From an uncultured bacterium (GTDB lineage: Bacteria; CSSED10-310; CAZUFC01): a stretch of 11,589 nucleotides of DNA. The DNA lies in NCBI GenBank assembly GCA_964619725.1, contig CAZUFC010000195.1, positions 1 to 11,589 of the forward strand. Direction: 5' to 3'. Positions 1 to 11,589 of the stretch are shown one piece after another. The notes under the pieces were generated by a model. It ran no database searches and had not been told where the DNA came from. It saw only the letters and a program-made list of their open reading frames with translations. Each line of letters opens with the position of its first letter. Position 1 is the stretch's first letter. Position numbers and translations under genes: made by a program.

Positions 1-278
1 GCTTGAATCTGCGGGAATCTGAACGCTCTCACTACGATTTTGTATGAGAAATCCGGGTTAGGGGGGCATACGGAACATTCGAAACAGCACTCATTTTCCA
101 TTTCTTTGGTTTCTTTTCGGCCAATACTGTTCTTCGGGCGTCCCGCTTTCATTTCATAAAAATGTTGGTAAAGATTGGTTTTTTTAATGGGGAATTTACT
201 GTAGCGATTTTTTGGGATGGGGCAAATTTAACCGGTGTTTGATCATATCCTAAATTCAAAAAAAGTTTAAAAACTCAT

Positions 279-1178: not shown

Positions 1179-1852
1179 GCGCCCTCCTTATCGCTGTTTT
1201 TCCTGTCTGAAGCTTTACTCCCCGGATTTTTTATTTTCAGTGGGTCATATTCGCCGTATTTTCCGGCGCGGCTGACATACGTTCCCACGGTATTCCGCGG
1301 GATGCCCAGTTTAGCGCCTATCTGTTCGTAAGTTAAACCCTGCTGCCTTAGTTCGATGACTTTTTTTCTTTTTTCCCTGGTTTCGGGGTCGTATTTCTGT
1401 GAATTTTTACTCCTTATCCGGGCCCTTTTTACGTTTTTCGTCAATTCCTCGATCAATTCTATGCGTTTTTCCTGTTGAAGGAAGCGCGTATCGGGCAGAA
1501 TGTCGATTAAATTCGAATCGGGATTTTCCGGGTCGATCTGTGAAAATAATGAAATAGCGTATAATGTATTCAGTTTTTCTTTTTGTTTCGCCATTTGAAT
1601 AATCTGATTCCTGACGATTTTGTATATCCATGTCGTCAGCTTGCAACGTCCCTCGAACCTGTCGATGCCTTTCCATATTTTAAGAATGACTTCCTGGACG
1701 ATATCCTCTTTTGATGTTCCCCAAACCTTCGGAACATCCCCCATAATATTGCCGATAAGCGCCAGAACATAACGTTTTAGAGCTTCACAGGCTTCCGGCG
1801 TAAATTCAGGTTTCCCTTTTTCGGCCCACTCGTTCAAGTTAAAATAAGTCAT
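1175..1852 (-). CDS. ECF-type sigma-70 family RNA polymerase sigma factor
   Basis: Region 2: EDIVQEVILKIWKGIDRFEGRCKLTTWIYKIVRN. Region 4 HTH: GLTYEQIGAKLGIPRNTVGTYVSRA. Start placed at ATG 1852 behind GGGAGA. The ORF stays open to ATG 1999, which also has an AAGGA upstream, so the start is uncertain. Confidence 0.92.
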   Translation of the reverse strand: MTYFNLNEWAEKGKPEFTPEACEALKRYVLALIGNIMGDVPKVWGTSKEDIVQEVILKIWKGIDRFEGRCKLTTWIYKIVRNQIIQMAKQKEKLNTLYAISLFSQIDPENPDSNLIDILPDTRFLQQEKRIELIEELTKNVKRARIRSKNSQKYDPETREKRKKVIELRQQGLTYEQIGAKLGIPRNTVGTYVSRAGKYGEYDPLKIKNPGSKASDRKNSDKEGA

Positions 1853-1915
1853 AACAATATCTCCCGTCTTCTTTTTCATTTCATACTGACGGCGTTTCTT
1901 ATGAAAACCGGAAAT

Positions 1916-1945
1916 ATTATATCTCCTGTCCGGCGGGCACGTAAA
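1916..1945 (-). promoter_or_regulatory. Candidate housekeeping sigma-70 promoter for the ECF/anti-sigma pair
   Basis: Minus strand TTTACG-N18-TATAAT (perfect -10, 4/6 -35), about 60 nt upstream of ATG 1852. Confidence 0.35.
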
Positions 1946-2084
1946 GATAAAACGGAAGCTCGGTTGATTGTCAGACATGTTGACTGCTAAAAGAGTCATT
2001 TTATTTCCTTATTAATTGTATTAATTATGGCTGCGGTTTAAGTTTTCTTTTTTCTTCGTCTTGAATGAGAGCGGAAATGTCGCG

Positions 2085-2181: not shown

Positions 2182-2382
2182 TTATTGTCCGCCCTGTTGC
2201 CGGGCTTCTTTCAGGAACTGTCTGCTGTTTCCGGAGAGGGCTTTACTGATGGCGTGGTCTGCGGCAGTCCATATATCGTCCGATTCGTTCCTGATTTCGT
2301 CCAATGACTCGCTGTTGGGGTTTTCGTTTTCAGGCGCCGTACGATGATCATTCTGCCTGTTATTTCTCTGTTTTTGATCCAT
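2182..2382 (-). CDS. pup: Pup-like (prokaryotic ubiquitin-like protein) tag, 66 aa, C-terminal GGQ
   Basis: The C-terminus NSRQFLKEARQQGGQ has the same N-x3-F-[VL]-x4-Q-x-G-G-Q spacing as actinobacterial Pup (NAEDFVRAYVQKGGQ). The N-terminal half is polar and probably disordered. AAGGGGT lies 7 nt before ATG 2382. The gene follows a PafA/Dop homolog and an ARC ATPase. Confidence 0.85.
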   Translation of the reverse strand: MDQKQRNNRQNDHRTAPENENPNSESLDEIRNESDDIWTAADHAISKALSGNSRQFLKEARQQGGQ

Positions 2383-2460
2383 TTTTTTTACCCCTTTTAA
2401 TTCGGTTAATTTTTTTGATTCGGGTCTTCGTTCATAGCGCTCATAGATAAAGTTTAAATT

Positions 2461-2484
2461 CGACAACGACAACGATCACGATAA
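2461..2484. repeat. Short degenerate hexamer tandem (CGAnnA x4)
   Basis: cgacaa cgacaa cgatca cgataa, in the spacer upstream of the pup-like gene. Confidence 0.5.
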
Positions 2485-2717
2485 AGAATACATTTTAAAG
2501 TTCTTTGTTTTAGCACAATGATCTGTTCCTGTTATCCCGATGCCTAAGCCGCGAGAGGGGGAAGTTAAATTTCAGAGAGCGATTTTCAACACGGAAGGCT
2601 TTTATGCGTCGAATCAGCGCTTCTTTTATGGGGTTCGATATCTTCATCGGTTCTAGGACAATTGATTGGACTCTGTGTTCTTTCAATTGTCCTCCTGTAA
2701 TTGAGGGTTCCCCGTCG

Positions 2718-4616
2718 CTATGCCGGCAGGGCTTTTTTAAGGTTTGATGTTTTTCCATTATTTCTGATTTTTTGTTCCAGTATGGACATATATGCATCGT
2801 TGATGCCTGGCCTGCTTGTCGTTTCGTTTTCATTTCGTCGTAGGTGTTTTATGATGTAAAGGTTTCCGCTTGAATTTTCATCTTTAAGTTTTTCCACGAT
2901 GACTTCGAGTGATTCGTTCTGATTGAGGAGTGATTCGCATTCTTTTTTGGTGAATCTGAGGGGATCGTTCATTTTCAGTTCGCGGCGTTTGCAAGGCGAC
3001 CAGATGCTGCCGTTCGTTTTGAATTTGAACTCTATTTTATCCCAGTCTATACTTTCTATCTGTTCCGCTTCGGCTTTTCTGATCAGGTTAGCGCGCAGCC
3101 AGGCCCTGGTGTTTTCCGGCGGAGAATAGATGAATTTTTTGATGTGCCCGTTCATAACGACGCTATCGACCAGGCCCTTTTTCTGGTAAGACCAGAAAAG
3201 ACCTTCGGCGTGTTCGAGGCTTGAGTAGATATGGTCCAGGAATTTTATTTGGGGCGATTGCCAGTTGAGTTTTCTGTTGTTGTGGAGCATTCTTTTCAGG
3301 ATATTCCATTTGAGCGCCCAGTCCAGTTTACGGGAAAGCGCGTTGAAGTCTTTTTTATTGAGCAGGTCCAGCACGCCATGCCAGATACTCATTATTTCGT
3401 GCCACCGTGGAACGTATCCTTCCGCTTTACCCTGTTTGACGAATTGTCTGACTCTGTTGAAAAGAGCGTTCTGGTATTCGACGATGGTGTATTTTTGTCC
3501 GTCGATCGTTTTAGCGGTTGCGTTCAGATTCGGATCGCGACTCCATTTATGGAGGGCGTTAAGGGGATCGTCCAGGATGAGTTCGGGGAATATATGATCC
3601 TGTTCCAGCATGGCCAGGATGAGTTGAGTAACGCCGATTTTAAGGAGGCAAGCAGTCTGGCAGAGGTTATTATCGAAGAAGATGACGTGGAGTCTGGCGA
3701 GGTCGTCTGGTTTCGAGTTTGATCGGAAGTAGCTGCGGGTTCCGCAGAGCGGTTCGTCACGGCTGTTGACAATGGGACGTCTATAAGTGGTTTGTTCTCC
3801 TGCAAGAGTTTCGAAGAAGTCGGCGCGTTGCGATATCTGGTAATCGGCGTCGGGCAGGCGGTTTTCGCTGCCTGCCTTGCCTGCTCCGGTAAAGACAATG
3901 GAGCCGGCCTGGTAGGATGCCAGGAAGAGCATGTGATGGAGTTTACGTTCAAAGATGTTGTCGTAGCATCGTCTTGATACGAGGAAATTGCAATGACTGC
4001 CGTAGCTGTTGTCCTGCCCGTCGCTGTTGTTGACCAGGGCTTTAATTTTCTGTCCTGCGGGGAGTTTGGCGTTGGCATTGCGGAGGGCTTTCGCCGCAGT
4101 CAGCATCATGGCGTACCATGCGGCTACGTGATCGAACGCGCTGACGACTTCCGGCACGCAGAGTTCAAGGTGGCCCAGGTCGATGTAGGCGCAACCTCCT
4201 TTCGTCGGCAGATATTTCCGTCCCCAATCGCGCAGATTGGTCTGATGATGATATCCGTAACCGTAACCGCGATCTTGATTTCCCCGGTTATTCGACTCCT
4301 TGTGCCGTTTTGAATCAGCCGGGTCTGAAAGGCGACCGGGAGAACATGTGTGACGTTCGGGGTAAAAGGAGTCCCAACTGTCCAGTTCCGGCGTTGGGCG
4401 CTCTTCATGTTCATCGGGGTAATCGTCTGCTTCATCCCTGCAATGACCGGGAAATTCCCTCAGGAGTGCGGAGGCTGCGCGTGCGCCTGTTCCTCCGGGA
4501 AGGTCCAGTCCCTGAATAAAGTTGCCCAGTTCGATATCCGCTCCGGTAACGATGGGTCGCCCTTTGTATAGTCTGCTTTCCGGGCGCTTTTTTTTCGAGC
4601 GATCAGGCTTTTTCAT
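2718..4616 (-). CDS. PafA/Dop family protein (Pup ligase / deamidase-depupylase, carboxylate-amine ligase fold)
   Basis: Family motifs occur in order: GADIELG, GGCAYIDLGHLELCVPE, NNSDGQDNSYGSHCNFL, GAGKAG, ISQRADF, TTYRRPIVNSRDEP, RLHVIFFDNN, LDWALKW, PPENTRAWLR, IDWD, DPLR. RBS is AAGGA. Signatures are mixed between PafA and Dop, so no symbol is given. Confidence 0.92.
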   Translation of the reverse strand: MKKPDRSKKKRPESRLYKGRPIVTGADIELGNFIQGLDLPGGTGARAASALLREFPGHCRDEADDYPDEHEERPTPELDSWDSFYPERHTCSPGRLSDPADSKRHKESNNRGNQDRGYGYGYHHQTNLRDWGRKYLPTKGGCAYIDLGHLELCVPEVVSAFDHVAAWYAMMLTAAKALRNANAKLPAGQKIKALVNNSDGQDNSYGSHCNFLVSRRCYDNIFERKLHHMLFLASYQAGSIVFTGAGKAGSENRLPDADYQISQRADFFETLAGEQTTYRRPIVNSRDEPLCGTRSYFRSNSKPDDLARLHVIFFDNNLCQTACLLKIGVTQLILAMLEQDHIFPELILDDPLNALHKWSRDPNLNATAKTIDGQKYTIVEYQNALFNRVRQFVKQGKAEGYVPRWHEIMSIWHGVLDLLNKKDFNALSRKLDWALKWNILKRMLHNNRKLNWQSPQIKFLDHIYSSLEHAEGLFWSYQKKGLVDSVVMNGHIKKFIYSPPENTRAWLRANLIRKAEAEQIESIDWDKIEFKFKTNGSIWSPCKRRELKMNDPLRFTKKECESLLNQNESLEVIVEKLKDENSSGNLYIIKHLRRNENETTSRPGINDAYMSILEQKIRNNGKTSNLKKALPA

Positions 4617-4645
4617 TTTATTCCTTTCTCTCTTGCGATGCCTGG

Positions 4646-6319
4646 TTAATTGACGTTAAGCATGAGATAACGATGGGAATGCTTAACGTTTTGTTTAATG
4701 GGTTCAACGCTGACCACGTCCATATCCTGGGGGATATTCTGCAGGTAGGTATGGGCGTTATGAGGCGTAAGCGTACTTTTGAGGCGCTCCAGGGCTGATG
4801 ATACCGCATCGTTCATATCGTCCACGTCGATTCCCGTATCGCTGTTTTGCATATTGCGAAGGAATGCGGACTGTCGCGCCTGTCTGCAGACCTGTTCGAA
4901 GAGTCTGCCGCTGGCCAGTTCGGCTGCCTTGACTTTGCGTGTTTTGCCGTTTCTGAACTTGACCACGCTGAGTTCATTATGTCCGTTGGGGCTGTAGAAT
5001 CGGGATACCGCTGTTTCGATCATTTTCTTTCTGGTGACGGATTTGGATGTTCCGTTGGACTGGTATCTCAGTTCAGGGGGAAGGTGTATCTCGAAGATGG
5101 CCCTGGCCGCTTCCATATTGGGGCGGTCGACCTGAATTTCGAGGTCGGATAATCGTTCGAGCAGAGCGGGATCGATCAGGTCTTTGCGGTTTGTAGCTGC
5201 GATGACGGCTACGTTTCCCCGGTCGGAGAATCCGTCCATTTCGGCCAGCAGCGTTGCCAGGAACCTGTCGGAATGAGCGCCTGATAAGCCGCCTCTAATG
5301 CGTCCGATAGATTCGATTTCATCCAGGAATAAAACGGTCGGTCCTTCCAGGGAAGCCTTGTGAAGAGCTTTGAAGCAGTTCCTGATGTTGGCTTCGGTAA
5401 CCCCTACCCAGGGACTCTGCCATTCGCCCGGTTTGACCACTCCGAAACGGCAGCGCTGTCCGCTGATACGACTCACTTCTGAAGCCGCCACCCTGGCCAT
5501 CAGCGTTTTACCGCAGCCTGGAGGACCGACCATGAGTATTGTCATGCGCCCTTTGATGCCGAATTCGGCGGCTTTGTCGGGATTGATCAGCGAAGCGGTC
5601 AGGTAACCCAGCAGCGTGTTCATCTGCCCATCCTGGCCTCCAACGTTTTCACGTCCTATATCCGGCAACTCCTCCAGAATGAATTCTTTTCCCTGGCTCT
5701 GCTCAATTTTTTCGAAAGCCAGCCACGAATTCCGGTCCCACCTGACTTCATCCCCTGATTTCAACATTACATCATTCAAGGTCGCCGCTTTATCGACTAT
5801 TACTTCCTCATCCCGGCAACGCAGCGCCATGCGGCCGTCTTGAAGATAACGATCAAACATGGCCGTCTCCCCGAAATGCGAAGAATCATTTTTCGATTTC
5901 CCTATGATGATGTTAAGGTCTTTCGACAGGAATACCTCGTCACCTGTATGCAGATCATCAAGATTCAACTGGTCATCTGTATCAACCAGTCGTCTGGAGC
6001 TGTTCCAGACCACTACGGCCCTCCGTCCGTGCGACGTATCCTCCGCATGCAAAAACCGGGCGGTATGCCAGGGGGGCGACGTCAGCTTATCCACCAGACT
6101 CTTGCATTTTTTGAGACTGTCGCGGGCGTTTTCAAGTCCCCTGTTCATTTCTTCTATGGCCGTCAGCAAATATTCATCAAGTCCCTGACTCATTTCAGCG
6201 GATTGCAGCCTAAGGTCCTGAGCGAATTTAACTTTTTGCTGCATGGTGGGCGCATTTTGTCCTACAGTCTTCAACAGCCGTAATTCCGGTATGCTGTTAA
6301 TGTTCTTCGGCGTCGTCAT
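4646..6319 (-). CDS. arc: ARC/Mpa-type proteasomal AAA+ ATPase
   Basis: N-terminal coiled coil ending KLTSPP (cf. Mpa RLGQPP), two OB-like segments (LHTGDEV, LKSGDEVRWD...AFEKI), LEELPD...VGG, Walker A GPPGCGKT, pore loop PWVG, Walker B VLFLDE, sensor-1 AATNRKDLIDPAL, and the ARC-type hairpin VKFRNGKTRKV before SGRLFEQV. Confidence 0.9.
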   Translation of the reverse strand: MTTPKNINSIPELRLLKTVGQNAPTMQQKVKFAQDLRLQSAEMSQGLDEYLLTAIEEMNRGLENARDSLKKCKSLVDKLTSPPWHTARFLHAEDTSHGRRAVVVWNSSRRLVDTDDQLNLDDLHTGDEVFLSKDLNIIIGKSKNDSSHFGETAMFDRYLQDGRMALRCRDEEVIVDKAATLNDVMLKSGDEVRWDRNSWLAFEKIEQSQGKEFILEELPDIGRENVGGQDGQMNTLLGYLTASLINPDKAAEFGIKGRMTILMVGPPGCGKTLMARVAASEVSRISGQRCRFGVVKPGEWQSPWVGVTEANIRNCFKALHKASLEGPTVLFLDEIESIGRIRGGLSGAHSDRFLATLLAEMDGFSDRGNVAVIAATNRKDLIDPALLERLSDLEIQVDRPNMEAARAIFEIHLPPELRYQSNGTSKSVTRKKMIETAVSRFYSPNGHNELSVVKFRNGKTRKVKAAELASGRLFEQVCRQARQSAFLRNMQNSDTGIDVDDMNDAVSSALERLKSTLTPHNAHTYLQNIPQDMDVVSVEPIKQNVKHSHRYLMLNVN

Positions 6320-7698
6320 GATGCAGCCTCCTGTTTTTTCGGCGATACCCTATTACGATCATCCATTTTCATCTCACCGTTCATCTCACCGTTCATCAGA
6401 TGAAAATGACGCGGCTTTATCATTCCGTAGCGCCAGCCGTAGAGCTGGTAATCGATTTTTTCCTCGGAATCCTCGCCGATGACCAGCGCCGTGTTGTAGG
6501 CGCGGGGGAATATGGTCCTGTGAAGAGCGCAATCGTCAATCGACATGAAAACCACGCTGCTTTTCGGCTTTTTGTTTTGAGAATTCGGTGCAGAAGGCTT
6601 GATTTTTTTCTCTCGAGATTCCTTCATGAACGAATGCGAATGCCACCAGCCCAGCAGAATTTCCTGCTTGTCGCGGAGTTTGACGGCGTTGGACAGCGCG
6701 GCCCAGGTTTCATGAGTAAACGTCAGTTTGGTGACTTGAGATTCGGAATGTTCCGCGGGAATTTGCGCTGTAACAACCGCAGCGATTTCCGTAGAATCCT
6801 TTTCACAGCAGAGGCGGCCGATCAGGAAGCCCCCGGTTTCGGCGGTTCCTGCTCTTTTCGTCAAGTCAATCGCTTCATTCAATACGCTTTGCGGAATAAA
6901 AACGGGCATATCTTCCCGGTTTTCCTGTCCGATTAACCTGGAATTGTTCAACAAGGATTGAAACGTCGCCTCATGCACAGGCAACGGCGTAATTATTTCC
7001 CGATGCTTCATGCCCTCACACTTGTCCATTTTTCCAGTCTCCCCGGTCCCTGATTCCTTCGATTCATCCCCGTCTTCCGAATGGGGAAAGGCGGCAACCA
7101 TATAAAAGAAAAGACTCTCCTCTTCAAGCAATCCCGATTCCACGAAATAATAGGAAGCTCTCTGCGCCTGTCCTTCCAGGTAAATGACCGGTATCCTGCC
7201 GGAAAACGTTTCCTCGCCGTTTTCACCCCTGATGACCACCTCGAAACCTTCGGCATAGGGTTCGCCGAGCCTGGCATGCCAGACAGGCCGGACGCTGATT
7301 CGGTCGCGGACCATGATCGGCGGTATTTTGCCTTCCCGTATGGCCTTCATGACCGTCCATTCAATCGCCGGCTCCCAGTCCGGAACGACCGGCAATTGAC
7401 CGATACGGGTCTTGTCCGTTTTGTAAAAGTCCAACGAATATTGATAACCGTCTATCTTCATATGAACCACTCTCCTGTTTTGTTGATTTGTTTTATTATG
7501 GATGATTTCATTGATGATAGGGTGAATATTGAAACAGGGTTCACATTTTTTTTTCAGAAAAGCGTCCCGGCCCATCCAGGGAAAATTCTGCGGACAACAT
7601 ACGATACATTGCGCTGATCTGATTGCTTCGGTCCTCATCGGGTTTGTAAGGCCGGGCCTTCCGGTGAAAGATGAGCCGGACGCTTCTGATGGATTCAT
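6316..7698 (-). CDS. JAB/MPN+ (JAMM) metallo-isopeptidase with an uncharacterised N-terminal region
   Basis: ETGGFLIG, GWWHSH and FMSIDD supply the JAMM E/H/H/S/D residues. Two plausible starts: ATG 7698 (GAGGAG) and ATG 7461 (AGGAGAG, 8-nt spacer). The stop overlaps the ATPase start (ATGA, 6316-6319). Confidence 0.87.
   Translation of the reverse strand: MNPSEASGSSFTGRPGLTNPMRTEAIRSAQCIVCCPQNFPWMGRDAFLKKKCEPCFNIHPIINEIIHNKTNQQNRRVVHMKIDGYQYSLDFYKTDKTRIGQLPVVPDWEPAIEWTVMKAIREGKIPPIMVRDRISVRPVWHARLGEPYAEGFEVVIRGENGEETFSGRIPVIYLEGQAQRASYYFVESGLLEEESLFFYMVAAFPHSEDGDESKESGTGETGKMDKCEGMKHREIITPLPVHEATFQSLLNNSRLIGQENREDMPVFIPQSVLNEAIDLTKRAGTAETGGFLIGRLCCEKDSTEIAAVVTAQIPAEHSESQVTKLTFTHETWAALSNAVKLRDKQEILLGWWHSHSFMKESREKKIKPSAPNSQNKKPKSSVVFMSIDDCALHRTIFPRAYNTALVIGEDSEEKIDYQLYGWRYGMIKPRHFHLMNGEMNGEMKMDDRNRVSPKKQEAAS
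6368..6397 (-). repeat. 12-bp tandem duplication (2.5 copies) encoding MNGEMNGE in the JAB tail
   Basis: Plus strand: ttcatctcaccg ttcatctcaccg ttcatc. Confidence 0.8.
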
Positions 7699-7721
7699 CT
7701 TCGTGTGAACTCCTCAGCGAC

Positions 7722-8000
7722 TCAGCCTGCGTTGATGCGCGGATGCAGAACAAGGGAGTCGTCTTGTTCCAAGGTGTCGGAAACTATTTCCGATGGATTG
7801 AGATGACGTCCCTGGCGGTCCAGGAACGCCTGATAGGACAATGAGTTTCCATTCGGATCGTTTCGGGGTATGTTCATCTCGCTGACCATTTTTTCCACTA
7901 CTTCCTTGATGGAAGCATCAGAGGGTATATCGCTGAATTCCTCTTTTTTCTGTCCGGAAATATCGCTCGCTGTTATTTTTATTGTTGCTGACTCAGGCAT
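7722..8000 (-). CDS. Ubiquitin-like (beta-grasp) protein with exposed C-terminal glycine
   Basis: 92 aa with a ubiquitin/YukD-like pattern: strand IKITASD, strand KKEEF, helix SIKEVVEKMVSEM, then GRHLNPSEIVSDTLEQDDSLVL and PRINAG-stop. RBS is AAGGAG. It sits among E1, E2 and JAB genes. Confidence 0.82.
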   Translation of the reverse strand: MPESATIKITASDISGQKKEEFSDIPSDASIKEVVEKMVSEMNIPRNDPNGNSLSYQAFLDRQGRHLNPSEIVSDTLEQDDSLVLHPRINAG

Positions 8001-8043
8001 TTTACTTTTTCTCCTTTTTTATACGGTTGATATAAGTATTTGT

Positions 8044-8979
8044 TTAGTTTGAATCGAACGCTCCGCTGATCCTCAGATATTCACGCGCTGCCATTTCATG
8101 CTTCAACGCCTTCACCTCCTTTCCGCATAAACGGCATGCCACGGAAAGAGCGCAGAGCGCCTCGCTTATATGATCAGGTGATGGAACAAGACCTGTGAAT
8201 ACCTGTAAAGCGGTCTTGTTCGGCGAATCAGGCGACTGGACAAGGCATACGGCCCTGACCATTTTTACCAGTCCTGAAACTTTGAGGAGCAGTAATCCTG
8301 CGGCTTTTTCGCCTTCGGAGGAGAGTTCTGATGCGTCGAGAATATCGACCTGGAGGATGCTTCCGCCGCCGTTTTCATCTTTTTTTAGTCTTGCCTGGAA
8401 GAACCCGCCGGGGACATCGAGTTTCACGATTATGTCTGCTGAATGTTCTGAAACCGTCCAATCGATGTTTTTTATCAGAGTGTTAATATCATTTTTCCAT
8501 TCGTCGGAAAGGACTTGCTCCGGTTTCCGGCCAGTTTTTATGTTCGCCGTTTTTGCGGAATTTAGTTTGCTCTTCATTTCTCCGGTTTTTATCCAGGCGT
8601 TCCGAAATTCGGTCAGGATGTTCCGTATAGTATGGCCGAAATCATCCGAGTTGGTTTTTACAGGCATTTCCATGCGAAGATGAATTGAGGGGACGGCCCC
8701 GGAGACGACGATTTTGCATCCGCCGGGTAGAAGGGGGTTCAGAGTCAGAAGGCTACAGAGTATTTCAGGTTTTAATTTTCCTTTTTGATGGAAGCAGTTT
8801 AACGGGGCATCCAGCATAAACCATTTGTCCTGGATGCGTGCGGTCGCCTCCGGGTTTTTACCGTCCAGAGTGAAGCGCCATTCGTTCCTGGAACAAAAGG
8901 TGGGGTCGAAGCCTGCTTCTTCCAGGTATTGCGTAACGGACTCGTTTCGTTCGAGGTATTTTAAAGGCATGATGTTCAT
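8044..8979 (-). CDS. Hypothetical protein, possibly tandem YbjN/CesT-like (T3SS chaperone fold) domains
   Basis: 311 aa, with an ATGA overlap with the E2 stop (8976-8979). Two halves separated by a Lys-rich linker each show a helix-3 strands-helix-2 strands-helix hydrophobicity pattern (LLTLNPLLPGGCKI; LLLKVSGLVKMVRA). The CDS is well supported; the fold is only an inference. Confidence 0.6.
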   Translation of the reverse strand: MNIMPLKYLERNESVTQYLEEAGFDPTFCSRNEWRFTLDGKNPEATARIQDKWFMLDAPLNCFHQKGKLKPEILCSLLTLNPLLPGGCKIVVSGAVPSIHLRMEMPVKTNSDDFGHTIRNILTEFRNAWIKTGEMKSKLNSAKTANIKTGRKPEQVLSDEWKNDINTLIKNIDWTVSEHSADIIVKLDVPGGFFQARLKKDENGGGSILQVDILDASELSSEGEKAAGLLLLKVSGLVKMVRAVCLVQSPDSPNKTALQVFTGLVPSPDHISEALCALSVACRLCGKEVKALKHEMAAREYLRISGAFDSN

Positions 8980-9509
8980 TTTTTCACCGTTTCATTTTTT
9001 TGCATGGTTCGTGTCAACGGACTGCGGTCAACGGGGAAGATTTGCGTATTGTTGCGCGCCCATTCGCATGCTTCCGCATTAAGGGCATCATTCTCATTCA
9101 TGGTGACGTTGTTGAACGTAATTATTTCGAATAACTGGTAGAGGATTTCCGTCAGGGCAGTTCCCGGCTTAAGTTTACCGGCGCAAACGAAGGGGGCGTG
9201 ATAAGTGATGTTGGGATGCCAGACGTGCGGCGGCGACATCCAGGTCAGAATCTGATAAGGATCGCAACGCCGGAGGTAATCGGAAGGAAAATATATTCCG
9301 ACAAGGAATTTTTCAGCCTTTTCGACTTGGCCCGAGGGCAGTTTGACCAGCCCCCGGCAATTATAACAGGCGATATAACGCTGATATGGGTAACGACCGA
9401 TGGCCGATAATTCAAGAATGTCGGATTTTTCTGCCAGTCGCATTCCCTCTTTGTGCTGCTGATTTATAAAATTAGTAAAAACCTTGTCCGTCATGACGTT
9501 AGAAGTCAT
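8976..9509 (-). CDS. Ubiquitin-conjugating enzyme (E2/UBC fold)
   Basis: IYFPSDY, WHPNI followed by a Cys (HPNITYHAPFVC), helix LTEILYQLFEII, and DALNAEA (cf. UBC DPLNxEAA). The start is probably ATG 9509, 6 nt after GGAGG; ATG 9515 abuts the RBS. Confidence 0.88.
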   Translation of the reverse strand: MTSNVMTDKVFTNFINQQHKEGMRLAEKSDILELSAIGRYPYQRYIACYNCRGLVKLPSGQVEKAEKFLVGIYFPSDYLRRCDPYQILTWMSPPHVWHPNITYHAPFVCAGKLKPGTALTEILYQLFEIITFNNVTMNENDALNAEACEWARNNTQIFPVDRSPLTRTMQKNETVKK

Positions 9510-9593
9510 AACCATCCTCCTTTGCTTATGGAGCCGTTTAACCCGGCTCGCATTAGACCTGGCCGGTATTTCATCTCAAACATGCCTGCCGGT

Positions 9594-10694
9594 TCATAAT
9601 TCATAGTATTGCTCCGTACGAAGGTCGCTGATCGAGAATACGTCGGACTTAAGGAATCCGAGTGAATCGAGAGAGCGCTGGAAAAAATAGGGAGGTATTT
9701 CCGTGCAGGCCAGGTAATCCAGGAGATCGAAACCGAGGGTTTCCAAACGGGCGCCGCATGAGGCGCAGGTGATCATTTCCGGGTTCAAACGATTGCGAAG
9801 TCGCAGGAGGGGCTTTTCAGAACCGCATCCGGGGCATACCAGGCGAGTCGCGAATTGAACGGGACCGCAGAACCTGATGTAATTTCCGTTGAAGCTCTTC
9901 CTTTCAGGCATTAACAGTTGATAAGCCTGATTCAGCGTGAATTCAGCGGGATCGACGTTCAATTTTTCTACTCTTCGAATGTGATGGTCGAATCGACATG
10001 AAGCGTTGGGGAACATTTTCACCACGTGGTATTTATGGTTCATGGCATCGATGAGGACTTTTCTGCCTATCAGCGCCTTATCACTGGAGCCGTTCAGCAG
10101 TTTTTCGCATTCGACGGCCTGAATGGAAGCGGCAAACGCCCCCAGGCTTGAAGTCCCGTTAGTGGACGCCGGCCCGTCTTCGGGTTCGGCTACACGGCAA
10201 GGATAACGTTGTTCCAGAAGATCATAATCCTCAGAAGACCAGGAGCATTCCAGGCAGGGGGCTGCCGGACCGGGAGCATAGATTTCTACTCGCATGAGCA
10301 TATCCGCCGGCGATACTCCTGCATCGATGTAAGGAACGCCGTTCAGAAGCCAGGAAGACTGGTTTAAATACTGCCTGGCTTCGTTGTTGTCCAGGCAGCC
10401 TGCTATGACGTCTGCCCTGAGTTTACCCAGCGGGACGTTTTGAACCTTGTCCACGACCGATTCCACTTCTAGACCGGGATTGATCTCCCTGAGACGTTCC
10501 GCCTGCACTTCTGCCTTGGCTCTTCCTACATCAGAGCTTCTTATGTCCTGCGATTTCAGGTTTTTAATTTCATAGCCGTCAGGATCGATTAAAGTGACCT
10601 TTTTTACTTCCTTCATCCGGCCAAGATGCGACACAAAATAAGAACCTATATTGCCGCAACCTGCCGCCAAAACTGTTTTGCCTTCTCTTCTCAT
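9594..10694 (-). CDS. E1-like (ThiF/MoeB family) adenylating enzyme with a C-terminal zinc-ribbon extension
   Basis: GCGNIG nucleotide-binding loop, IDPD...NLKSQ, GRAKA, CLDN..AR, CLEC, candidate catalytic Cys166 (RYPC), and an additional CPGC...CASC pair. RBS is AAGGAG. Confidence 0.92.
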   Translation of the reverse strand: MRREGKTVLAAGCGNIGSYFVSHLGRMKEVKKVTLIDPDGYEIKNLKSQDIRSSDVGRAKAEVQAERLREINPGLEVESVVDKVQNVPLGKLRADVIAGCLDNNEARQYLNQSSWLLNGVPYIDAGVSPADMLMRVEIYAPGPAAPCLECSWSSEDYDLLEQRYPCRVAEPEDGPASTNGTSSLGAFAASIQAVECEKLLNGSSDKALIGRKVLIDAMNHKYHVVKMFPNASCRFDHHIRRVEKLNVDPAEFTLNQAYQLLMPERKSFNGNYIRFCGPVQFATRLVCPGCGSEKPLLRLRNRLNPEMITCASCGARLETLGFDLLDYLACTEIPPYFFQRSLDSLGFLKSDVFSISDLRTEQYYEL

Positions 10695-10713
10695 GTCCCT
10701 CTCCTTAAATTTT

Positions 10714-11286
10714 TCAAAGAGTTTCCGGGGTCCACCTGTAACCGGAATTTAAATCAGTGTTCTGATCGCAAAGCGCGCATTTTTCAGCATAGGTCCAGCA
10801 GGGAAGTTCTTCCGTTTCATGATGCCAAACAGAACAGTCTGGATTAGGACAGCGAACAGCCGTCGTTCCCGTTTCAATCTCCTGCTTGCAGCGAGGACAG
10901 AACACTTTCCTGCCCAATTCCGGCAAAGGCGCTTTCCGCGCAAGACGCTCGCCGGAAAAGAAAAAACGACCGGCATCCTTCAGCATGATTTCATCACGGT
11001 CAGACAATTCTTTGATCCCGGTCATCAGGGGGATGCCGTTGACGGAAACGTCGTTCGCATTCTTGCTCATCAGGAGCCAGTTTTCCTTTTGACTTTTTCC
11101 TGATTTTGAATCCGACCGGATCAGAATGACTGTACCGTTTTCCATTCCCGAATTATCGCTTTCCGCCTGCACCGCTTGCACCGCGTGGTTTTTTAAGTGA
11201 AATCTGTCATGTGCATCCAGAACGGCCAGAGCCCATTCACGTTCCTGTTCGTTCCCGTTTTTTGTTTCTTTCCATAAATGAGCCAT
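10714..11286 (-). CDS. Degenerate FHA domain plus prokaryotic RING-like zinc finger (candidate E3)
   Basis: WLLMSKNANDVSVNG...ELSDRDEIML matches the C-terminal half of an FHA domain. CPRC-x12-CPNPDC-SVWHH-x6-CW-x5-CALC is a binuclear treble-clef/RING-type pattern. GAGGAGG lies 6 nt before ATG 11286 (the ORF track start is 11301). Confidence 0.75.
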   Translation of the reverse strand: MAHLWKETKNGNEQEREWALAVLDAHDRFHLKNHAVQAVQAESDNSGMENGTVILIRSDSKSGKSQKENWLLMSKNANDVSVNGIPLMTGIKELSDRDEIMLKDAGRFFFSGERLARKAPLPELGRKVFCPRCKQEIETGTTAVRCPNPDCSVWHHETEELPCWTYAEKCALCDQNTDLNSGYRWTPETL

Positions 11287-11536
11287 TATCAACCTCCTCA
11301 TACATACAGACGCGACCCGCCATTTTTTTTTCAGCTTTATTCGAATAAATTCTCATGTTTTGAAGCTCCCTTTCCACTCGGGTTGTCGCGTCAATAGTAT
11401 TGGATGCTTTTGCAACGAAAAATTTCAGTTGGGGGCGTTTTTTTTTATTTTTTGGGTAATCAGAAAAGCCAGCTTCTGGAAACAAAAACGAAGATTCTGG
11501 AAAAAGAGCTTGCAGTTTTTATGTTTGTCGGTGGGA

Positions 11537-11577
11537 CCTCACCCCCCGGCCCCCTCTCCATGAATGGAGAGGGGGAG
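11537..11577. repeat. REP-like palindromic element (CCTCACCCC...CCCCCTCTCC-loop-GGAGAGGGGG)
   Basis: Perfect inverted repeat: ccccctctccat (11550-11561) and atggagaggggg (11564-11575), preceded by cctcacccccc. Confidence 0.65.
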
Positions 11578-11589
11578 TCAGATTGGGTT

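What the first reader, a model, noticed from the sequence alone, without database searches (positions are those of the whole stretch)
2182..11286. One gene cluster joining a full ubiquitin-like cascade (RING, E1, E2, Ubl, JAB) to a pupylation module (ARC, PafA/Dop, Pup)
Seen: nine co-directional genes. The first eight have gaps under 100 nt or ATGA overlaps, including at the JAB/ARC junction between the modules; the pup-like gene follows after 335 nt. Two different tags are encoded: a beta-grasp Ubl ending in AG and a probably disordered Pup ending in GGQ. Established: Ubl conjugation (E1 adenylation, E2 thioester, JAB removal) and pupylation (GS-fold ligase, ARC recognition) are chemically unrelated and usually encoded at separate loci. 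The characterised bacterial E1/E2/Ubl/JAB operons I know of (Bil/Bub, CBASS Cap2/Cap3) carry no Pup machinery. Inference: this is a dual-tag or relay system, for example RING/E2 selects substrates, the Ubl or substrate is then pupylated, and ARC unfolds it. It could act in signalling or phage defence. I know of no experimental characterisation, but comparative-genomics papers may have noted similar neighbourhoods.
Basis: partly seen in the sequence, partly recalled or inferred. Interest (0 to 1): 0.95.

Follow-up and report, generated by a model that had tools for sequence, protein, structure and literature searches.

The report
Conserved operon joining ubiquitin-like and Pup tagging
This window holds nine genes of a widespread but untested bacterial operon that puts a ubiquitin-like tagging cascade and the unrelated Pup tagging system, with an unfolding ATPase but no proteasome, under one roof.

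Summary
On the minus strand lie nine genes:
- an FHA + C4HC3 RING protein
- a ThiF-type E1
- a UBC-type E2 (HPN...Cys)
- a tandem YbjN/T3SS-chaperone-like protein
- a Ubl ending Ala-Gly
- a JAMM isopeptidase
- an ARC/Mpa-type AAA ATPase
- a Pup_ligase-family enzyme
- a 66-aa Pup ending GGQ

The linkage is not chance. In 45 of 54 related loci with enough flank, all upstream genes recur in the same order. Their labels span more than ten phylum-level lineages.

- The window's GS-fold enzyme falls with Dop (deamidase/depupylase), not the ligase.
- The PafA-like ligase follows Pup in 59 of 60 other loci. In this genome it sits on another contig.
- No 20S proteasome pair was found.

Variants without E1, E2, Ubl and JAB still keep the FHA-RING and YbjN-like genes. 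A complex model supports binding between these two proteins.

One sentence in Kaur et al. 2020 already notes a Ubl system coupled to Pup conjugation. I found no characterisation. Function is inferred: two tags feeding one ARC unfoldase.

The parts
10714..11301 (-). FHA + C4HC3 RING-type zinc-finger protein (putative E3 or substrate selector). The conserved start is Met6, at 11286.
   Evidence: The AF2 model has pLDDT 89.3. All listed top Foldseek PDB hits for the N-terminal half are FHA domains; the best is 2jqj, E 1.8e-4. Conserved ligands are C135 C138 C151 C156 H161 C168 C175 C178. Prok-RING_1 is hit by 25 of 33 orthologues, best 2.5e-8; the window's own copy scores E 7e-4, below the cut-off.
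9594..10694 (-). E1-like adenylating enzyme (ThiF fold) with a C-terminal Cys4 zinc ribbon
   Evidence: Pfam ThiF 8e-30. The nearest PDB sequences are ThiF/MoeB and eukaryotic E1s. Residues conserved at 90% or more include G12 G14 G17, D37, K60, D102, R107, D124, C147, C150, C166, C233, C287, C290, C310 and C313.
8976..9515 (-). E2 (UBC-like) with an HPN motif and the invariant Cys111
   Evidence: See alignment A2. A profile search of the PDB returns 19 eukaryotic UBC E2s among 20 hits, at weak E-values of 0.017-1. PF00179 UQ_con is hit by 11 of 26 orthologues, best 9.4e-5, but not by the window's own copy.
8044..8979 (-). Tandem YbjN / type-III-secretion-chaperone-like protein (pseudo-dimer), a putative adaptor that docks on the FHA domain
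   Evidence: It has no Pfam or NCBIfam hit. The AF2 model has pLDDT 88.5 and pTM 0.89, with two alpha+beta halves. In Foldseek each half resembles SicP, SchA, YbjN, AmyR, ExsC and SycT, with TM(target) 0.5-0.66 and E 1e-3 to 3e-2. The complex model with FHA-RING scores 0.83 against a best control of 0.00. The family has 1735 representatives at E<=1e-3.
7722..8000 (-). Ubiquitin-like modifier, 92 aa, ending Ala-Gly
   Evidence: A91-G92 is invariant in 30 of 30 aligned orthologues. Of 62 orthologous ORFs, 25 stop right after AG, 36 carry tails of 1-30 aa, and 1 lacks the motif. Support for the beta-grasp fold is only weak: YukD in 5 of 30, plus UBL_ZFAND1 and RA_2, and an Atlas YukD cluster at 0.93. 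No structure was predicted.
6316..7698 (-). JAB/JAMM metallo-isopeptidase with an N-terminal domain of unknown fold. The likely real start is Met80, at 7461.
   Evidence: Pfam JAB and Prok-JAB score above their cut-offs. E287, H353, H355, S386 and D389 are conserved at 90% or more in 60 sequences. The nearest PDB sequences are CSN5 and Rpn8, weakly, at E 0.035-0.56. The stop overlaps the ARC start (ATGA).
4646..6319 (-). ARC/Mpa-type AAA+ unfoldase
   Evidence: TIGR03689 pup_AAA scores 257 bits, below the 505 cut-off. The PAN models score about 137 bits. Pfam AAA and Prot_ATP_ID_OB_C are hit. Walker A 265-272 and Walker B D333/E334 are conserved. The conserved C-terminal Tyr lies 4-9 residues from the end in most orthologues.
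2718..4616 (-). Dop-like member of the Pup_ligase (GS-fold) family; predicted Pup deamidase/depupylase
   Evidence: Pup_ligase 8.9e-89. The Dop model scores 271.5 bits and the PafA model 230.6, both below their cut-offs. PDB Dop sequences score 178-187 bits and PafA 117-118 bits. D146, H149 and E151 are invariant in 26 sequences. A quick ML tree places it with 3 Dop references, split support 99.
2450..2552 (.). Copy of a dispersed short repeat inside the unusually long Dop-Pup spacer
   Evidence: Up to 17 other genomic copies overlap it. The contigs of run X1 break at 2453-2479 and the depth rises there.
2182..2382 (-). Pup, 66 aa from the conserved Met, ending GGQ
   Evidence: See alignment A6 of 37 orthologues. 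The 64 orthologous ORFs end GGQ (39), GGE (19) or another x-G-Q/E form (6). Pfam Pup is hit by 4 of 37, best 2.6e-5; the window's long ORF scores E 0.05. Its position directly after the Dop-like gene is the same in the other loci.

Best explanation
The window carries nine of the ten genes of a conserved, horizontally spread bacterial operon. The operon combines two protein-tagging chemistries around one AAA+ unfoldase.

**Shown by sequence, fold and synteny**
1. A eukaryote-like Ubl set. It comprises a ThiF-type E1, a UBC-type E2 with HPN...Cys, an FHA + C4HC3 RING protein, a small Ubl whose mature end is Ala-Gly, and a JAMM peptidase.
2. A tandem YbjN/T3SS-chaperone-like protein.
3. A pupylation set. 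It comprises an ARC/Mpa-type ATPase, a Dop-like enzyme and Pup ending GGQ. The PafA-like ligase that normally follows Pup lies on contig C112 in this genome.
4. No 20S proteasome pair was found.

**Inferred mechanism**
- E1 adenylates the Ubl and passes it as a thioester to E2.
- The FHA-RING protein, held by the YbjN-like adaptor, selects targets.
- JAB trims the C-terminal tails of pro-Ubl and removes conjugated Ubl.
- The Dop-like enzyme deamidates the terminal Gln of Pup and removes Pup, while the PafA-like enzyme ligates it.
- The ARC ring reads Pup and unfolds or extracts the tagged protein. It either hands the protein to unlinked proteases or simply remodels it.
- The FHA-RING/adaptor pair probably serves both ligation routes, because it is kept where E1, E2, Ubl and JAB are lost.
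For: **Domain identities:**

**Conserved order**
- The 80 related loci came from genome contigs.
- All seven upstream genes are colinear in 45 of 54 loci with at least 7 kb upstream.
- The labels of those 45 loci cover Acidobacteriota, Verrucomicrobiota, Planctomycetota, Binatia, Armatimonadota, Eisenbacteria, Hydrogenedentota, Latescibacteria, Margulisiibacteriota and 'delta proteobacterium'.

**Tenth gene**
- A second Pup_ligase paralogue lies downstream of Pup in 59 of 60 loci with more than 2.5 kb downstream. The same holds in 5 of 5 whole genomes tested.
- A quick ML tree gives a split with support 99. The paralogue-1 sequences (including the window's) fall with 3 Dop references. The paralogue-2 sequences (including the C112 copy) fall with 4 PafA references (the same split appeared).

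**Tag hallmarks**
- AG is invariant, and 36 of 62 Ubl ORFs carry tails that need trimming.
- All 64 Pup ORFs end in Q or E.

**Coupling**
- ATGA overlaps join E2 to the adaptor and JAB to ARC.
- Cross-module distance correlations (r 0.35-0.70) match the within-module ones (0.53-0.65) in 32 loci.
- Three six-gene variants (L026, L037, L077) keep FHA-RING, the adaptor, ARC, Dop, Pup and PafA.
- No E2 of this family was found in 4 of 4 such genomes, while it was found once in each of 5 of 5 control genomes.

**FHA-RING with the adaptor.** The complex model supports binding but does not show it.
- Score 0.83, best of 3 controls 0.00.
- That mark was reached by 58 of 80 solved complexes and by 2 of 110 mismatched pairs. 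These counts hold only roughly here, because my own alignments and three chains were used.
- The runs agree in at least 63% of contacts, and the partner's pLDDT is at least 78.

**No proteasome**
- PF00227 gave 0 hits in the own genome, which is 91% complete.
- In 5 other carrier genomes it gave one hit each, or two in G043, all far from the operon and none an adjacent alpha/beta pair.
Against: - Nothing here shows conjugation, expression or co-transcription.
- The window's own E2, Ubl and Pup fail every curated Pfam cut-off. They are called through orthologue profiles, motifs and position.
- The beta-grasp fold of the Ubl was not modelled.
- The Dop-versus-PafA assignment rests on quick trees with long stem branches (2.3-2.7 changes per column). 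It also rests on scores below the NCBIfam cut-offs. Three ambiguous or long reference rows (L009, L011, L013) and four family loci were left out of the second tree.
- The ligase is unlinked in this genome, and a 335-nt spacer holding a dispersed repeat separates Dop from Pup. This copy may therefore be regulated differently or be decaying.
- 9 of the 54 loci are incomplete or divergent. Three Blastocatellia loci lack an adjacent FHA-RING and E1.
- The canonical phosphothreonine-binding residues of FHA domains (recalled, not from a call) are not among the conserved columns of alignment A4.
- The complex model used three chains. Its score vanished when the FHA-RING chain was replaced, so it says nothing about Pup binding.
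Confidence: 0.6

Rival explanations
1. The operon is an anti-phage or other conflict system. The Ubl is conjugated to invader proteins, as in Bil systems, or to an effector. Pup and ARC then unfold or clear the tagged targets. This rival concerns biological role and could share the same biochemistry as the best explanation.
For: - The distribution is patchy. Only 6 of 41 genomes, counting the window's own, have any Pup_ligase homologue.
- The operon nonetheless recurs at about 40-50% identity across many phyla, which fits horizontal spread.
- Flanking genes are mostly not conserved.
- Kaur et al. 2020 mention the Ubl-Pup coupling in a paper on conflict systems (passage seen).
- The E1 and JAB share domain-level similarity with CBASS Cap2/Cap3 models.
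Against: - There is no match beyond generic E1, JAB and AAA domains in PADLOC 2.0. Six of ten proteins have no hit at all.
- No homologue of the adaptor was found in 50,697 phage records.
- Only two actinobacterial Dop-like matches at about 30% identity were found in 72,556 plasmid records.
- No toxin or effector gene is conserved in the operon.
- Cluster GC is 0.496 against a genome GC of 0.471, with contig sd 0.022. This is not a clear island.
Confidence: 0.25
2. These are two independent tagging systems that share a locus and perhaps a promoter. They have separate targets and no cross-dependence.
For: - Each module has every part it needs on its own, as known from actinobacterial pupylation and from archaeal or bacterial E1/E2/RING/JAB operons (established knowledge).
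- Six-gene variants work without E1, E2, Ubl and JAB.
- No Lys is conserved at 90% or more in either tag.
Against: - The fixed gene order is kept across more than ten phylum-level labels.
- Overlapping stop/start codons occur at the JAB/ARC junction.
- The modules have diverged in step.
- The FHA-RING gene, nominally of the Ubl module, and the adaptor stay with the Pup/ARC genes when the Ubl enzymes are lost.
Confidence: 0.15
3. The system is a tag-on-tag relay. Either the Ubl (or a Ubl-modified substrate) is itself pupylated, or Pup is modified by the Ubl, so that only doubly marked proteins reach ARC.
For: - A semi-conserved Lys is present in the Ubl (window K18; K in 25 of 30 aligned sequences).
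- Both ligation systems are always encoded together.
Against: - That Lys is replaced by R, N or Y in 5 of 30 sequences.
- Pup has no conserved Lys; its best column holds K in 22% of sequences.
- Variants lacking the Ubl keep the rest of the operon.
Confidence: 0.1
4. The linkage is an assembly artefact. The contig would be a chimera that joins two unrelated loci through a repeat.
For: - Contigs of run X1 break at 2453-2479, inside a dispersed repeat between the Dop-like gene and Pup.
- Both ends of the window are high-copy repeats.
Against: - The break lies inside the Pup module, not between the modules.
- One X1 contig spans 6761-11561 and others span 4465-6774 and 2453-4493, all with no differences. 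X1 may be the source of the DNA, so it is not independent.
- 45 independent loci show the same order, with Pup after the Dop-like gene.
Confidence: 0.01

Closest known systems
Actinobacterial Pup-proteasome system (Mpa/ARC, Dop, Pup, PrcB/PrcA, PafA)
   Same: - It has the same gene families and the same local order arc ... dop - pup ... pafA. This order was also seen in a Nonomuraea record.
- Pup is small and ends GGQ or GGE.
- The catalytic Asp motif of the GS-fold enzymes is kept.
- The two paralogues fall on the Dop and PafA sides of the tree.
   Different: - There are no 20S subunit genes in the operon, and no alpha/beta pair in the 6 genomes checked.
- The ARC C-terminal Tyr is not penultimate (the Mpa motif is recalled).
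- All scores fall below the NCBIfam equivalog cut-offs.
- The set is fused to an E1/E2/RING/Ubl/JAB set and a YbjN-like adaptor.
Prokaryotic eukaryote-like Ub operons with Prok-RING_1 (Ub, E1, E2, RING, JAB). They are described by the Pfam PF14446 family text and by Burroughs et al. 2011, which is not held here and is recalled only. Nunoura et al. 2010 on Caldiarchaeum appeared in a search listing.
   Same: - A stand-alone E1.
- A UBC-type E2 with HPN...Cys.
- A C4HC3 RING of the Prok-RING_1 family (25 of 33 orthologues).
- A JAMM peptidase.
- A small Ubl with a C-terminal Gly.
   Different: - The RING is fused to an FHA domain.
- The Ubl ends Ala-Gly.
- A tandem YbjN-like gene sits between E2 and Ubl.
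- The operon runs straight into ARC, Dop, Pup and PafA.
[quoted passage not shown]
   Same: It is very probably the same operon family. It links a Ubl system with E1, E2, RING and JAB to Pup conjugation, and it includes Planctomycetes.
   Different: The paper gives no gene list, figure or analysis in the passages I saw, and its supplements are closed. The following points are worked out here:
- the ten-gene architecture
- the Dop/PafA pair
- the FHA fusion
- the YbjN-like adaptor
- the E2-less variants
- the missing 20S
- the much wider range, with Acidobacteriota in 38 of the 80 loci
Bil, Bub and CBASS Cap2/Cap3 bacterial ubiquitination-like defence operons
   Same: They share E1 adenylation, an E2 thioester and a JAB peptidase. 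There are domain-level hits of the E1 and JAB to the Cap2 and Cap3 models.
   Different: - There is no E1-E2 fusion.
- The E2 matches the eukaryotic UQ_con family rather than any PADLOC model.
- A RING-type E3 is present.
- It is linked to pupylation.
- Two Corbett-lab preprints on these pathways do not contain 'Pup' (listing; term search).
Eukaryotic analogies (working likeness only, all recalled): FHA-RING E3 ligases such as RNF8, CHFR and Dma1, and the Rpn11 deubiquitinase mounted on the Rpt AAA ring of the 26S proteasome
   Same: - FHA followed by a RING in one polypeptide.
- A JAMM peptidase gene overlapping the gene of a proteasomal-type AAA ATPase.
   Different: - There is no evidence of common descent of the FHA-RING architecture.
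- The conserved face of the FHA domain is predicted to hold the YbjN-like protein.
- A JAB-ARC complex was not tested.

Membership tests
Pupylation system | Small Pup with a C-terminal Gly-Gly-Gln/Glu | tested here: met
   The window's Pup ends GGQ. The 64 orthologous ORFs end GGQ (39), GGE (19) or another x-G-Q/E form (6). Pfam Pup is hit by only 4 of 37.
Pupylation system | Pup_ligase-family (GS-fold) enzyme with the catalytic Asp motif | tested here: met
   PF03136 8.9e-89. D146, H149 and E151 are invariant in 26 sequences and align to the Dop active-site strand.
Pupylation system | Both a Dop-type and a PafA-type paralogue | tested here: met
   This is met for the genome, not for the window. 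The Dop-like copy is in the window and the PafA-like copy is on C112. The tree split has support 99. Both copies score below the NCBIfam cut-offs.
Pupylation system | Mpa/ARC AAA ATPase with N-terminal coiled-coil and OB domains | tested here: met
   TIGR03689 matches residues 57-510 at 257 bits, below the 505 cut-off. Prot_ATP_ID_OB_C scores 4e-8.
Pupylation system | Linked 20S proteasome alpha and beta subunits (typical, but not universal, in Actinobacteria) | tested here: not met
   PF00227 gave 0 hits in the own genome, which is 91% complete. Five other carrier genomes gave one or two distant hits each and no adjacent pair. No such gene appears among the conserved neighbours.
Eukaryote-like prokaryotic Ub operon (Prok-RING_1 type) | E1 with a nucleotide-binding motif and a conserved Cys | tested here: met
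   ThiF 8e-30. G12/G14/G17 and C166 are conserved at 90% or more in 42 sequences.
Eukaryote-like prokaryotic Ub operon (Prok-RING_1 type) | UBC-fold E2 with HPN and a catalytic Cys | tested here: met
   The H100-P101-N102 motif (P101 invariant, H100 and N102 in at least 90% of rows) and the invariant C111 are present. UQ_con is hit by 11 of 26 orthologues. The PDB profile hits are eukaryotic E2s. The fold was not modelled.
Eukaryote-like prokaryotic Ub operon (Prok-RING_1 type) | RING-type binuclear zinc finger | tested here: met
   Eight conserved C4HC3 ligands are present. Prok-RING_1 is hit by 25 of 33 orthologues; the window's copy scores 19.9 bits against a cut-off of 29.1.
Eukaryote-like prokaryotic Ub operon (Prok-RING_1 type) | Beta-grasp Ubl with an exposed or processable C-terminal Gly | tested here: inconclusive
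   The C-terminal AG is invariant, with or without tails. The fold is supported only by weak hits to YukD, UBL and RA families and by the Atlas. A PDB profile search gave nothing below E 0.28.
Eukaryote-like prokaryotic Ub operon (Prok-RING_1 type) | JAMM/MPN+ peptidase motif (Glu, His-x-His, Ser-x-x-Asp) | tested here: met
   E287, H353, H355, S386 and D389 are conserved at 90% or more. Pfam JAB scores 26.9 bits against a cut-off of 22.5.
CBASS Cap2/Cap3, Bil, Bub defence operons | E2-E1 fusion, or match to the systems' own protein models | tested here: not met
   E1 and E2 are separate genes. PADLOC gives only partial E1-domain hits of 39 bits or less and JAB hits of 35 bits or less. The E2, Ubl, RING and adaptor have no hit.
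YbjN / type III secretion chaperone-like fold | Alpha+beta fold of the chaperone family | tested here: inconclusive
   Each half of the high-confidence model aligns to SicP, SchA, YbjN and SycT with TM(target) 0.58-0.66 and probability 1.00. E-values are only 1e-3 to 3e-2, and there is no sequence-family hit.
FHA domain | FHA beta-sandwich fold | tested here: met
   All listed top Foldseek hits are FHA domains, best E 1.8e-4.
FHA domain | Conserved phosphothreonine-binding Arg, Ser and His (motif recalled) | tested here: not met
   The conserved columns of A4 in the FHA half are W10, L28, W75, N88, G95, L99, D103, F115, S116 and E118. No conserved Arg or Ser-x-x-His appears. No Pfam FHA hit was found at E<=0.1.

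The most novel reading that the evidence does not exclude
The operon encodes a bacterial counterpart of the proteasome's regulatory particle that works without a 20S core.

- The JAMM peptidase would sit on the ARC ring as Rpn11 sits on the Rpt ring.
- It would strip the Ubl while the ring pulls the substrate through.
- Pup would serve as the second, ring-engaging handle.
- The FHA-RING/YbjN-like pair would choose the targets for both ligases.

If so, two chemically unrelated tags act as a two-key degron or unfolding signal. The functional coupling of ubiquitin-type tagging to a proteasomal-type ATPase would then exist in bacteria.
Probability: 0.15. Interest if true: 0.92.

Novelty: new variant of a known kind. 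Interest (0 to 1): 0.78.

Why it matters
Ubiquitin-type conjugation and pupylation are textbook examples of convergent, chemically unrelated protein tagging. They are thought of as belonging to different organisms.

- **Scale.** Here the two systems are one inherited unit in a large, mostly uncultured set of bacteria. The adaptor family alone has 1735 representatives at 50% identity.
- **A testable question.** Do the two tags cooperate on one AAA+ unfoldase, and what does such a machine do without a proteasome?
- **Evolutionary reach.** The result bears on how ubiquitin signalling became coupled to ATP-dependent unfolding.
- **Substrate selection.** The operon offers a compact FHA-RING plus adaptor selector to study.
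- **Tools.** It could yield two orthogonal tagging systems for use in one cell.

Only a one-sentence mention exists in the literature I could search.

Tried and rejected
**Searches that found nothing useful**
- A single-protein scan of genome contigs found no relative. The alignment-based scan worked.
- Burroughs et al. 2011 and 2012 are not held. The held text of Cavalier-Smith 2020 is cut before its 'Pup' passages. The search for 'PafA2', 'UBact' and 'Pup-like' returned unrelated papers. The search for Burroughs 2015 found nothing useful. Supplements are closed, so gene lists behind the Kaur et al. sentence could not be seen.
- No RNA holder was listed among the sequencing runs, so co-transcription could not be examined.
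- Promoter-like and terminator-like sites do not exceed the shuffles: 12 against 11.9, and 12 against 17.3.
- There is no Rfam match.

**Weak or spurious hits set aside**
- The PDB profile search with the adaptor gave only a probably spurious reductase hit at E 9e-4.
- The Atlas search on the JAB N-terminal domain scored 0.84 and 0.75, which are leads only. Its fold remains unknown.
- PADLOC gave only generic domain hits.
- The phage collection gave no match and the plasmid collection gave two distant actinobacterial Dop matches.

**Analyses that did not finish or did not discriminate**
- The careful ML tree did not finish in the time allowed, so quick trees were used.
- GC content does not mark the cluster as foreign.
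- Pup binding to the YbjN-like protein was tested in the three-chain model. Only Pup residues 53 and 56-57 touch, and replacing the FHA-RING chain brought the score to 0.00. No claim about Pup binding is made.

**Neighbours not counted as parts**
- A roughly 210-aa protein upstream of FHA-RING occurs in 29 loci. A roughly 390-aa AAA-lid protein downstream of the PafA-like gene occurs in 28 loci. A sigma-54 activator occurs in 12 loci.
- The first is absent from the window's genome. The second has only distant relatives there, at 24-33% identity.

Full report
**1. What is in the window**

The window is a whole 11,589-base contig (C195) of a 9.17-Mb, 344-contig genome that is 91% complete. Between 2182 and 11301 the minus strand carries nine ORFs in a row:
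- a 195-aa protein (10714-11301)
- a 366-aa ThiF-family E1 (9594-10694)
- a 179-aa protein (8976-9515)
- a 311-aa protein (8044-8979)
- a 92-aa protein ending Asn-Ala-Gly (7722-8000)
- a JAB protein (6316-7698)
- an AAA ATPase (4646-6319)
- a 632-aa Pup_ligase-family protein (2718-4616)
- a small ORF ending GGQ (2182-2472; conserved Met at 2382)

ATGA overlaps join E2 to the 311-aa gene and JAB to ARC, and 335 nt precede Pup. One caveat applies. In 38 of 59 aligned orthologous JAB ORFs the start aligns to residues 73-84 of the window's ORF. The true start is therefore probably Met80 (7461), and the Ubl-JAB gap is then 260 nt. Downstream lie a sigma-70-family gene (1175-1999) and a 299-aa gene without a clear family. 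These two are not conserved neighbours elsewhere: a sigma hit appears in 1 of 80 loci.

**2. Identity of the parts**

- **E1.** ThiF scores 8e-30. The nearest solved sequences are ThiF/MoeB and eukaryotic E1s. The nucleotide-binding glycines, C166 and a C-terminal Cys4 ribbon are conserved.
- **E2.** The window's copy has no Pfam hit. The alignment of 26 orthologues shows HPN followed by the invariant Cys111. A profile of that alignment finds 19 eukaryotic UBC enzymes among 20 PDB hits, at weak E-values of 0.017-1. Eleven of the 26 orthologues hit UQ_con.
- **The 195-aa protein.** A confident model (pLDDT 89.3) has an N-terminal half that matches FHA domains in every listed top hit. The C-terminal half has eight conserved C4HC3 zinc ligands. 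Twenty-five of 33 orthologues hit Prok-RING_1.
- **The 311-aa protein.** It has no family hit. It folds with pLDDT 88.5 into two alpha+beta halves. Each half resembles type III secretion chaperones and YbjN, with TM(target) 0.5-0.66 and weak E-values.
- **Ubl.** Ala-Gly is invariant in 30 of 30 aligned sequences. Of 62 orthologous ORFs, 25 stop right after AG, 36 carry 1-30 extra residues, and one lacks the motif. This is the pattern of a modifier that a peptidase matures. Its beta-grasp fold is supported only weakly.
- **JAB.** The Glu, His-x-His and Ser-x-x-Asp residues are all conserved.
- **ARC.** TIGR03689 (the Pup-system ATPase) scores 257 bits against about 137 for the PAN models, with a proteasomal OB domain.
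- **Pup.** The 64 orthologous ORFs end GGQ (39), GGE (19) or a close variant (6), so all end in Q or E. Four of 37 hit Pfam Pup.

**3. The linkage is conserved**

The Pup_ligase-family protein has more than 2,400 relatives at E<=1e-20, and the best 120 are 44-54% identical. An alignment of 26 of them retrieved 199 related stretches from the species-representative genome collection, of which the best 80 were kept.

By tblastn, the window's proteins match these 80 loci as follows: Pup_ligase 80, ARC 76, JAB 66, Ubl 61, E2 58, FHA-RING 54, E1 51, the 311-aa protein 51, Pup 49. The hits are always in the window's order. Many of the loci are short contigs.

Among the 54 loci with at least 7 kb upstream, 45 have all seven upstream genes colinear. 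The other nine are:
- three Blastocatellia loci without an adjacent FHA-RING and E1 (unrelated genes lie upstream in L025)
- L067, without FHA-RING, E1 or an ORF-level E2 hit
- L037 and L077, without E1, E2, Ubl and JAB
- three loci where the 311-aa gene was not detected

The record labels of the 80 loci are: Acidobacteriota 38, Planctomycetota 13, Verrucomicrobiota 7, Binatia 4, and two each of Eisenbacteria, Armatimonadota, Gemmatimonadota and 'delta proteobacteria'. Hydrogenedentota, Latescibacteria, Margulisiibacteriota and a doubtful 'Bifidobacteriaceae' label have one each, and six are unlabelled.

The 311-aa family alone has 1735 representatives at E<=1e-3 (972 at 1e-30) among 1.84 billion cluster representatives.

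Pairwise-distance matrices of the genes correlate across modules as well as within them. Across modules, E1 against the two GS-fold paralogues gives 0.60 and 0.65, and the 311-aa protein against them gives 0.70 and 0.69. Within modules, E1-E2 gives 0.53 and the two paralogues give 0.60. This was measured in 32 loci. Related genomes share history, so this shows joint inheritance and not interaction.

**4. A tenth gene, and Dop versus PafA**

In 5 of 5 other carrier genomes a second Pup_ligase gene follows within a few hundred bases. Across the loci, 59 of 60 with more than 2.5 kb downstream hold one. In four of these (L079, L089, L090, L094) it lies 0.9-6 kb away on the other strand, and L030 has none. 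The window's genome has its orthologue on contig C112, at about 40% identity to the others. It sits among unrelated genes, with no Pup in front of it.

- The window's enzyme scores higher with the Dop model than with the PafA model: 271.5 against 230.6 bits, both below the cut-offs.
- It also scores higher with solved Dop than with solved PafA: 178-187 against 117-118 bits.
- The C112 enzyme is equivocal.
- A quick ML tree of 47 rows and a second of 39 rows agree. The second adds a Nonomuraea Dop and PafA, which I labelled by their place in the arc...dop-pup...pafA order (the canonical order is recalled). It leaves out the long or ambiguous rows L009, L011 and L013 and four family loci.
- Both trees give one split with SH-aLRT 99. 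Paralogue 1 falls with the Dop references and paralogue 2 with the PafA references.
- Both family stems are long (2.3-2.7), so this is the best reading, not a proof.

Hecht et al. 2020 (PMC7947786, passages seen) used single-copy planctomycete homologues as an outgroup to Dop and PafA. I did not test whether those belong to this family.

**5. No proteasome**

PF00227 finds nothing in the window's genome. In five other carriers it finds one hit each, or two in G043, all far from the operon and none an adjacent pair. The control genomes show that this model also detects HslV-type proteins. The ARC C-terminus is conserved, with a Tyr that lies four to five residues from the end in most orthologues and eight to nine in the rest, the window's copy among them, rather than penultimate. 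The penultimate-Tyr docking motif of Mpa is recalled, not tested.

**6. Variants that separate the parts**

L026, L037 and L077 (Planctomycetota) carry a compact six-gene form: FHA-RING, the 311-aa gene, ARC, Dop-like, Pup and PafA-like. In L037 the PafA-like protein has added TPR repeats. L085 has FHA-RING directly before the Dop-like gene.

The E2 profile finds nothing in these four genomes, whose completeness is not known. It finds exactly one copy in each of five control carriers. In the two of these variants that are in the alignment (L026 and L037), all eight RING ligands are retained. In the tree the variants nest among full forms, L026 beside L029 or L052, which suggests loss of the Ubl enzymes. 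Keeping the gene that lies between the two lost pairs implies selection for it. The FHA-RING and YbjN-like proteins are therefore tied to the Pup/ARC genes at least as tightly as to E1 and E2.

**7. Predicted complex**

I folded a three-chain model of FHA-RING, Pup and the 311-aa protein, with the last as the scored partner. The model supports binding; it does not show it.
- The score is 0.83 in all three runs, and the best of three controls is 0.00.
- That mark was reached by 58 of 80 solved complexes and by 2 of 110 mismatched pairs. The counts hold only roughly here, because my own alignments and three chains were used.
- The runs agree in at least 63% of contacts, and the partner's pLDDT is at least 78.
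- The confident interface joins FHA residues 32-33, 57-65, 74-81 and 93-100 to residues 230-237 and 276-306 of the second YbjN-like half. The FHA residues include the conserved W75 and G95.
- Replacing the FHA-RING chain gave 0.00, so the result says nothing about Pup.

**8. Peculiarities of this copy**

Both window ends (1-65 and 11508-11588) and 2450-2552, in the Dop-Pup spacer, are copies of short dispersed repeats. Up to 62, 38 and 17 other genomic copies overlap them. Contigs of run X1 cover 37-2479, 2453-4493, 4465-6774 and 6761-11561 with no differences and break in the spacer repeat. X1 may be the source of the DNA and is not independent. One contig holds Pup together with the sigma genes, so the lack of a PafA-like gene after Pup is not an effect of the repeat junction. 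Cluster GC is 0.496 against a genome GC of 0.471, with contig sd 0.022.

**9. Literature**

Eight full-text searches (and term look-ups) found one relevant statement. [quoted passage not shown]

Iyer et al. 2008 on pupylation (PMC2588565, passages seen) list Pup neighbourhoods without any JAB or ThiF term. Two 2024 preprints on bacterial ubiquitination pathways do not contain 'Pup'. The two Burroughs reviews that might describe it are not held, and supplements are closed. Within what I could search, I found no experimental work and no detailed description.

**10. How it most likely works**

*Shown.* The parts, their catalytic motifs, their fixed order and wide spread, the Dop/PafA pair, the tag termini, the missing 20S, and the E2-less variants.

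*Inferred.*
- E1 and E2 load the Ubl.
- The FHA-RING protein, held by the YbjN-like pseudo-dimer, picks targets.
- JAB matures and removes the Ubl.
- The Dop-like enzyme deamidates and removes Pup, and the PafA-like enzyme attaches it.
- ARC engages Pup and unfolds the target.
- The overlap of the JAB and ARC genes suggests a JAB-on-ring arrangement like Rpn11 on the 26S base (analogy recalled, untested).

*Rivals.* The same biochemistry could serve defence (0.25). The modules could be independent (0.15). The tags could be joined to each other (0.10). A chimeric contig is excluded for the Ubl/Pup junction.

**11. Verdict**

This is a real, conserved and abundant operon family that is experimentally untouched. 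It is a new variant built from two known kinds of tagging system, and the literature I could search mentions the coupling only in passing. The window's copy is atypical, with an unlinked ligase and a long repeat-bearing spacer.

Noticed in passing
window 1-65, 2450-2552, 11508-11588: These are short dispersed repeats. Up to 62, 17 and 38 other copies overlap them in the same genome. The contig ends in them, and run depth rises from about 8 to about 200 at both ends.
   Followed up: partly
G000 contig C112 (L016:9595-11250 and neighbours): The unlinked PafA-like gene sits among two CHAT-domain proteins, a HEAT-repeat protein, and a 503-aa protein with a sigma-70 region-4 domain. Both Pup-system loci of this genome are thus followed by sigma-like genes.
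   Followed up: partly
L019:2731-3405, L021:2488-3099 and 27 further loci: A roughly 210-aa protein without a Pfam family lies just upstream of FHA-RING in many loci. By eye, its C-terminus looks like a winged-helix DNA-binding domain, so it may be the operon's regulator. It is absent from the window's genome.
   Followed up: partly
L019:13746-14921, L021:13720-14907 and 26 further loci: A roughly 390-aa protein with a P-loop and an AAA_lid_9 domain, plus a conserved N-terminal domain of unknown family, follows the PafA-like gene. It may be an eleventh component in Acidobacteriota.
   Followed up: partly
L037:11982-14474: In a six-gene variant the PafA-like ligase is fused to C-terminal TPR repeats. 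This may be a built-in substrate-binding module.
   Followed up: no
L022 and L041: Two contigs of one MAG each carry a copy of the operon's Pup part, so some genomes may hold two copies. G045 also has a third Pup_ligase gene a few kb downstream.
   Followed up: no
L025:516-2867: In the Blastocatellia loci that lack an adjacent FHA-RING and E1, a 784-aa WD40 beta-propeller protein and an outer-membrane beta-barrel gene lie upstream of E2.
   Followed up: no
window 279-1999: A sigma-70-family gene with a long N-terminal extension overlaps (ATGA) a 299-aa Cys-rich gene that may be its anti-sigma factor. Both run co-directionally after Pup, only in this genome.
   Followed up: no
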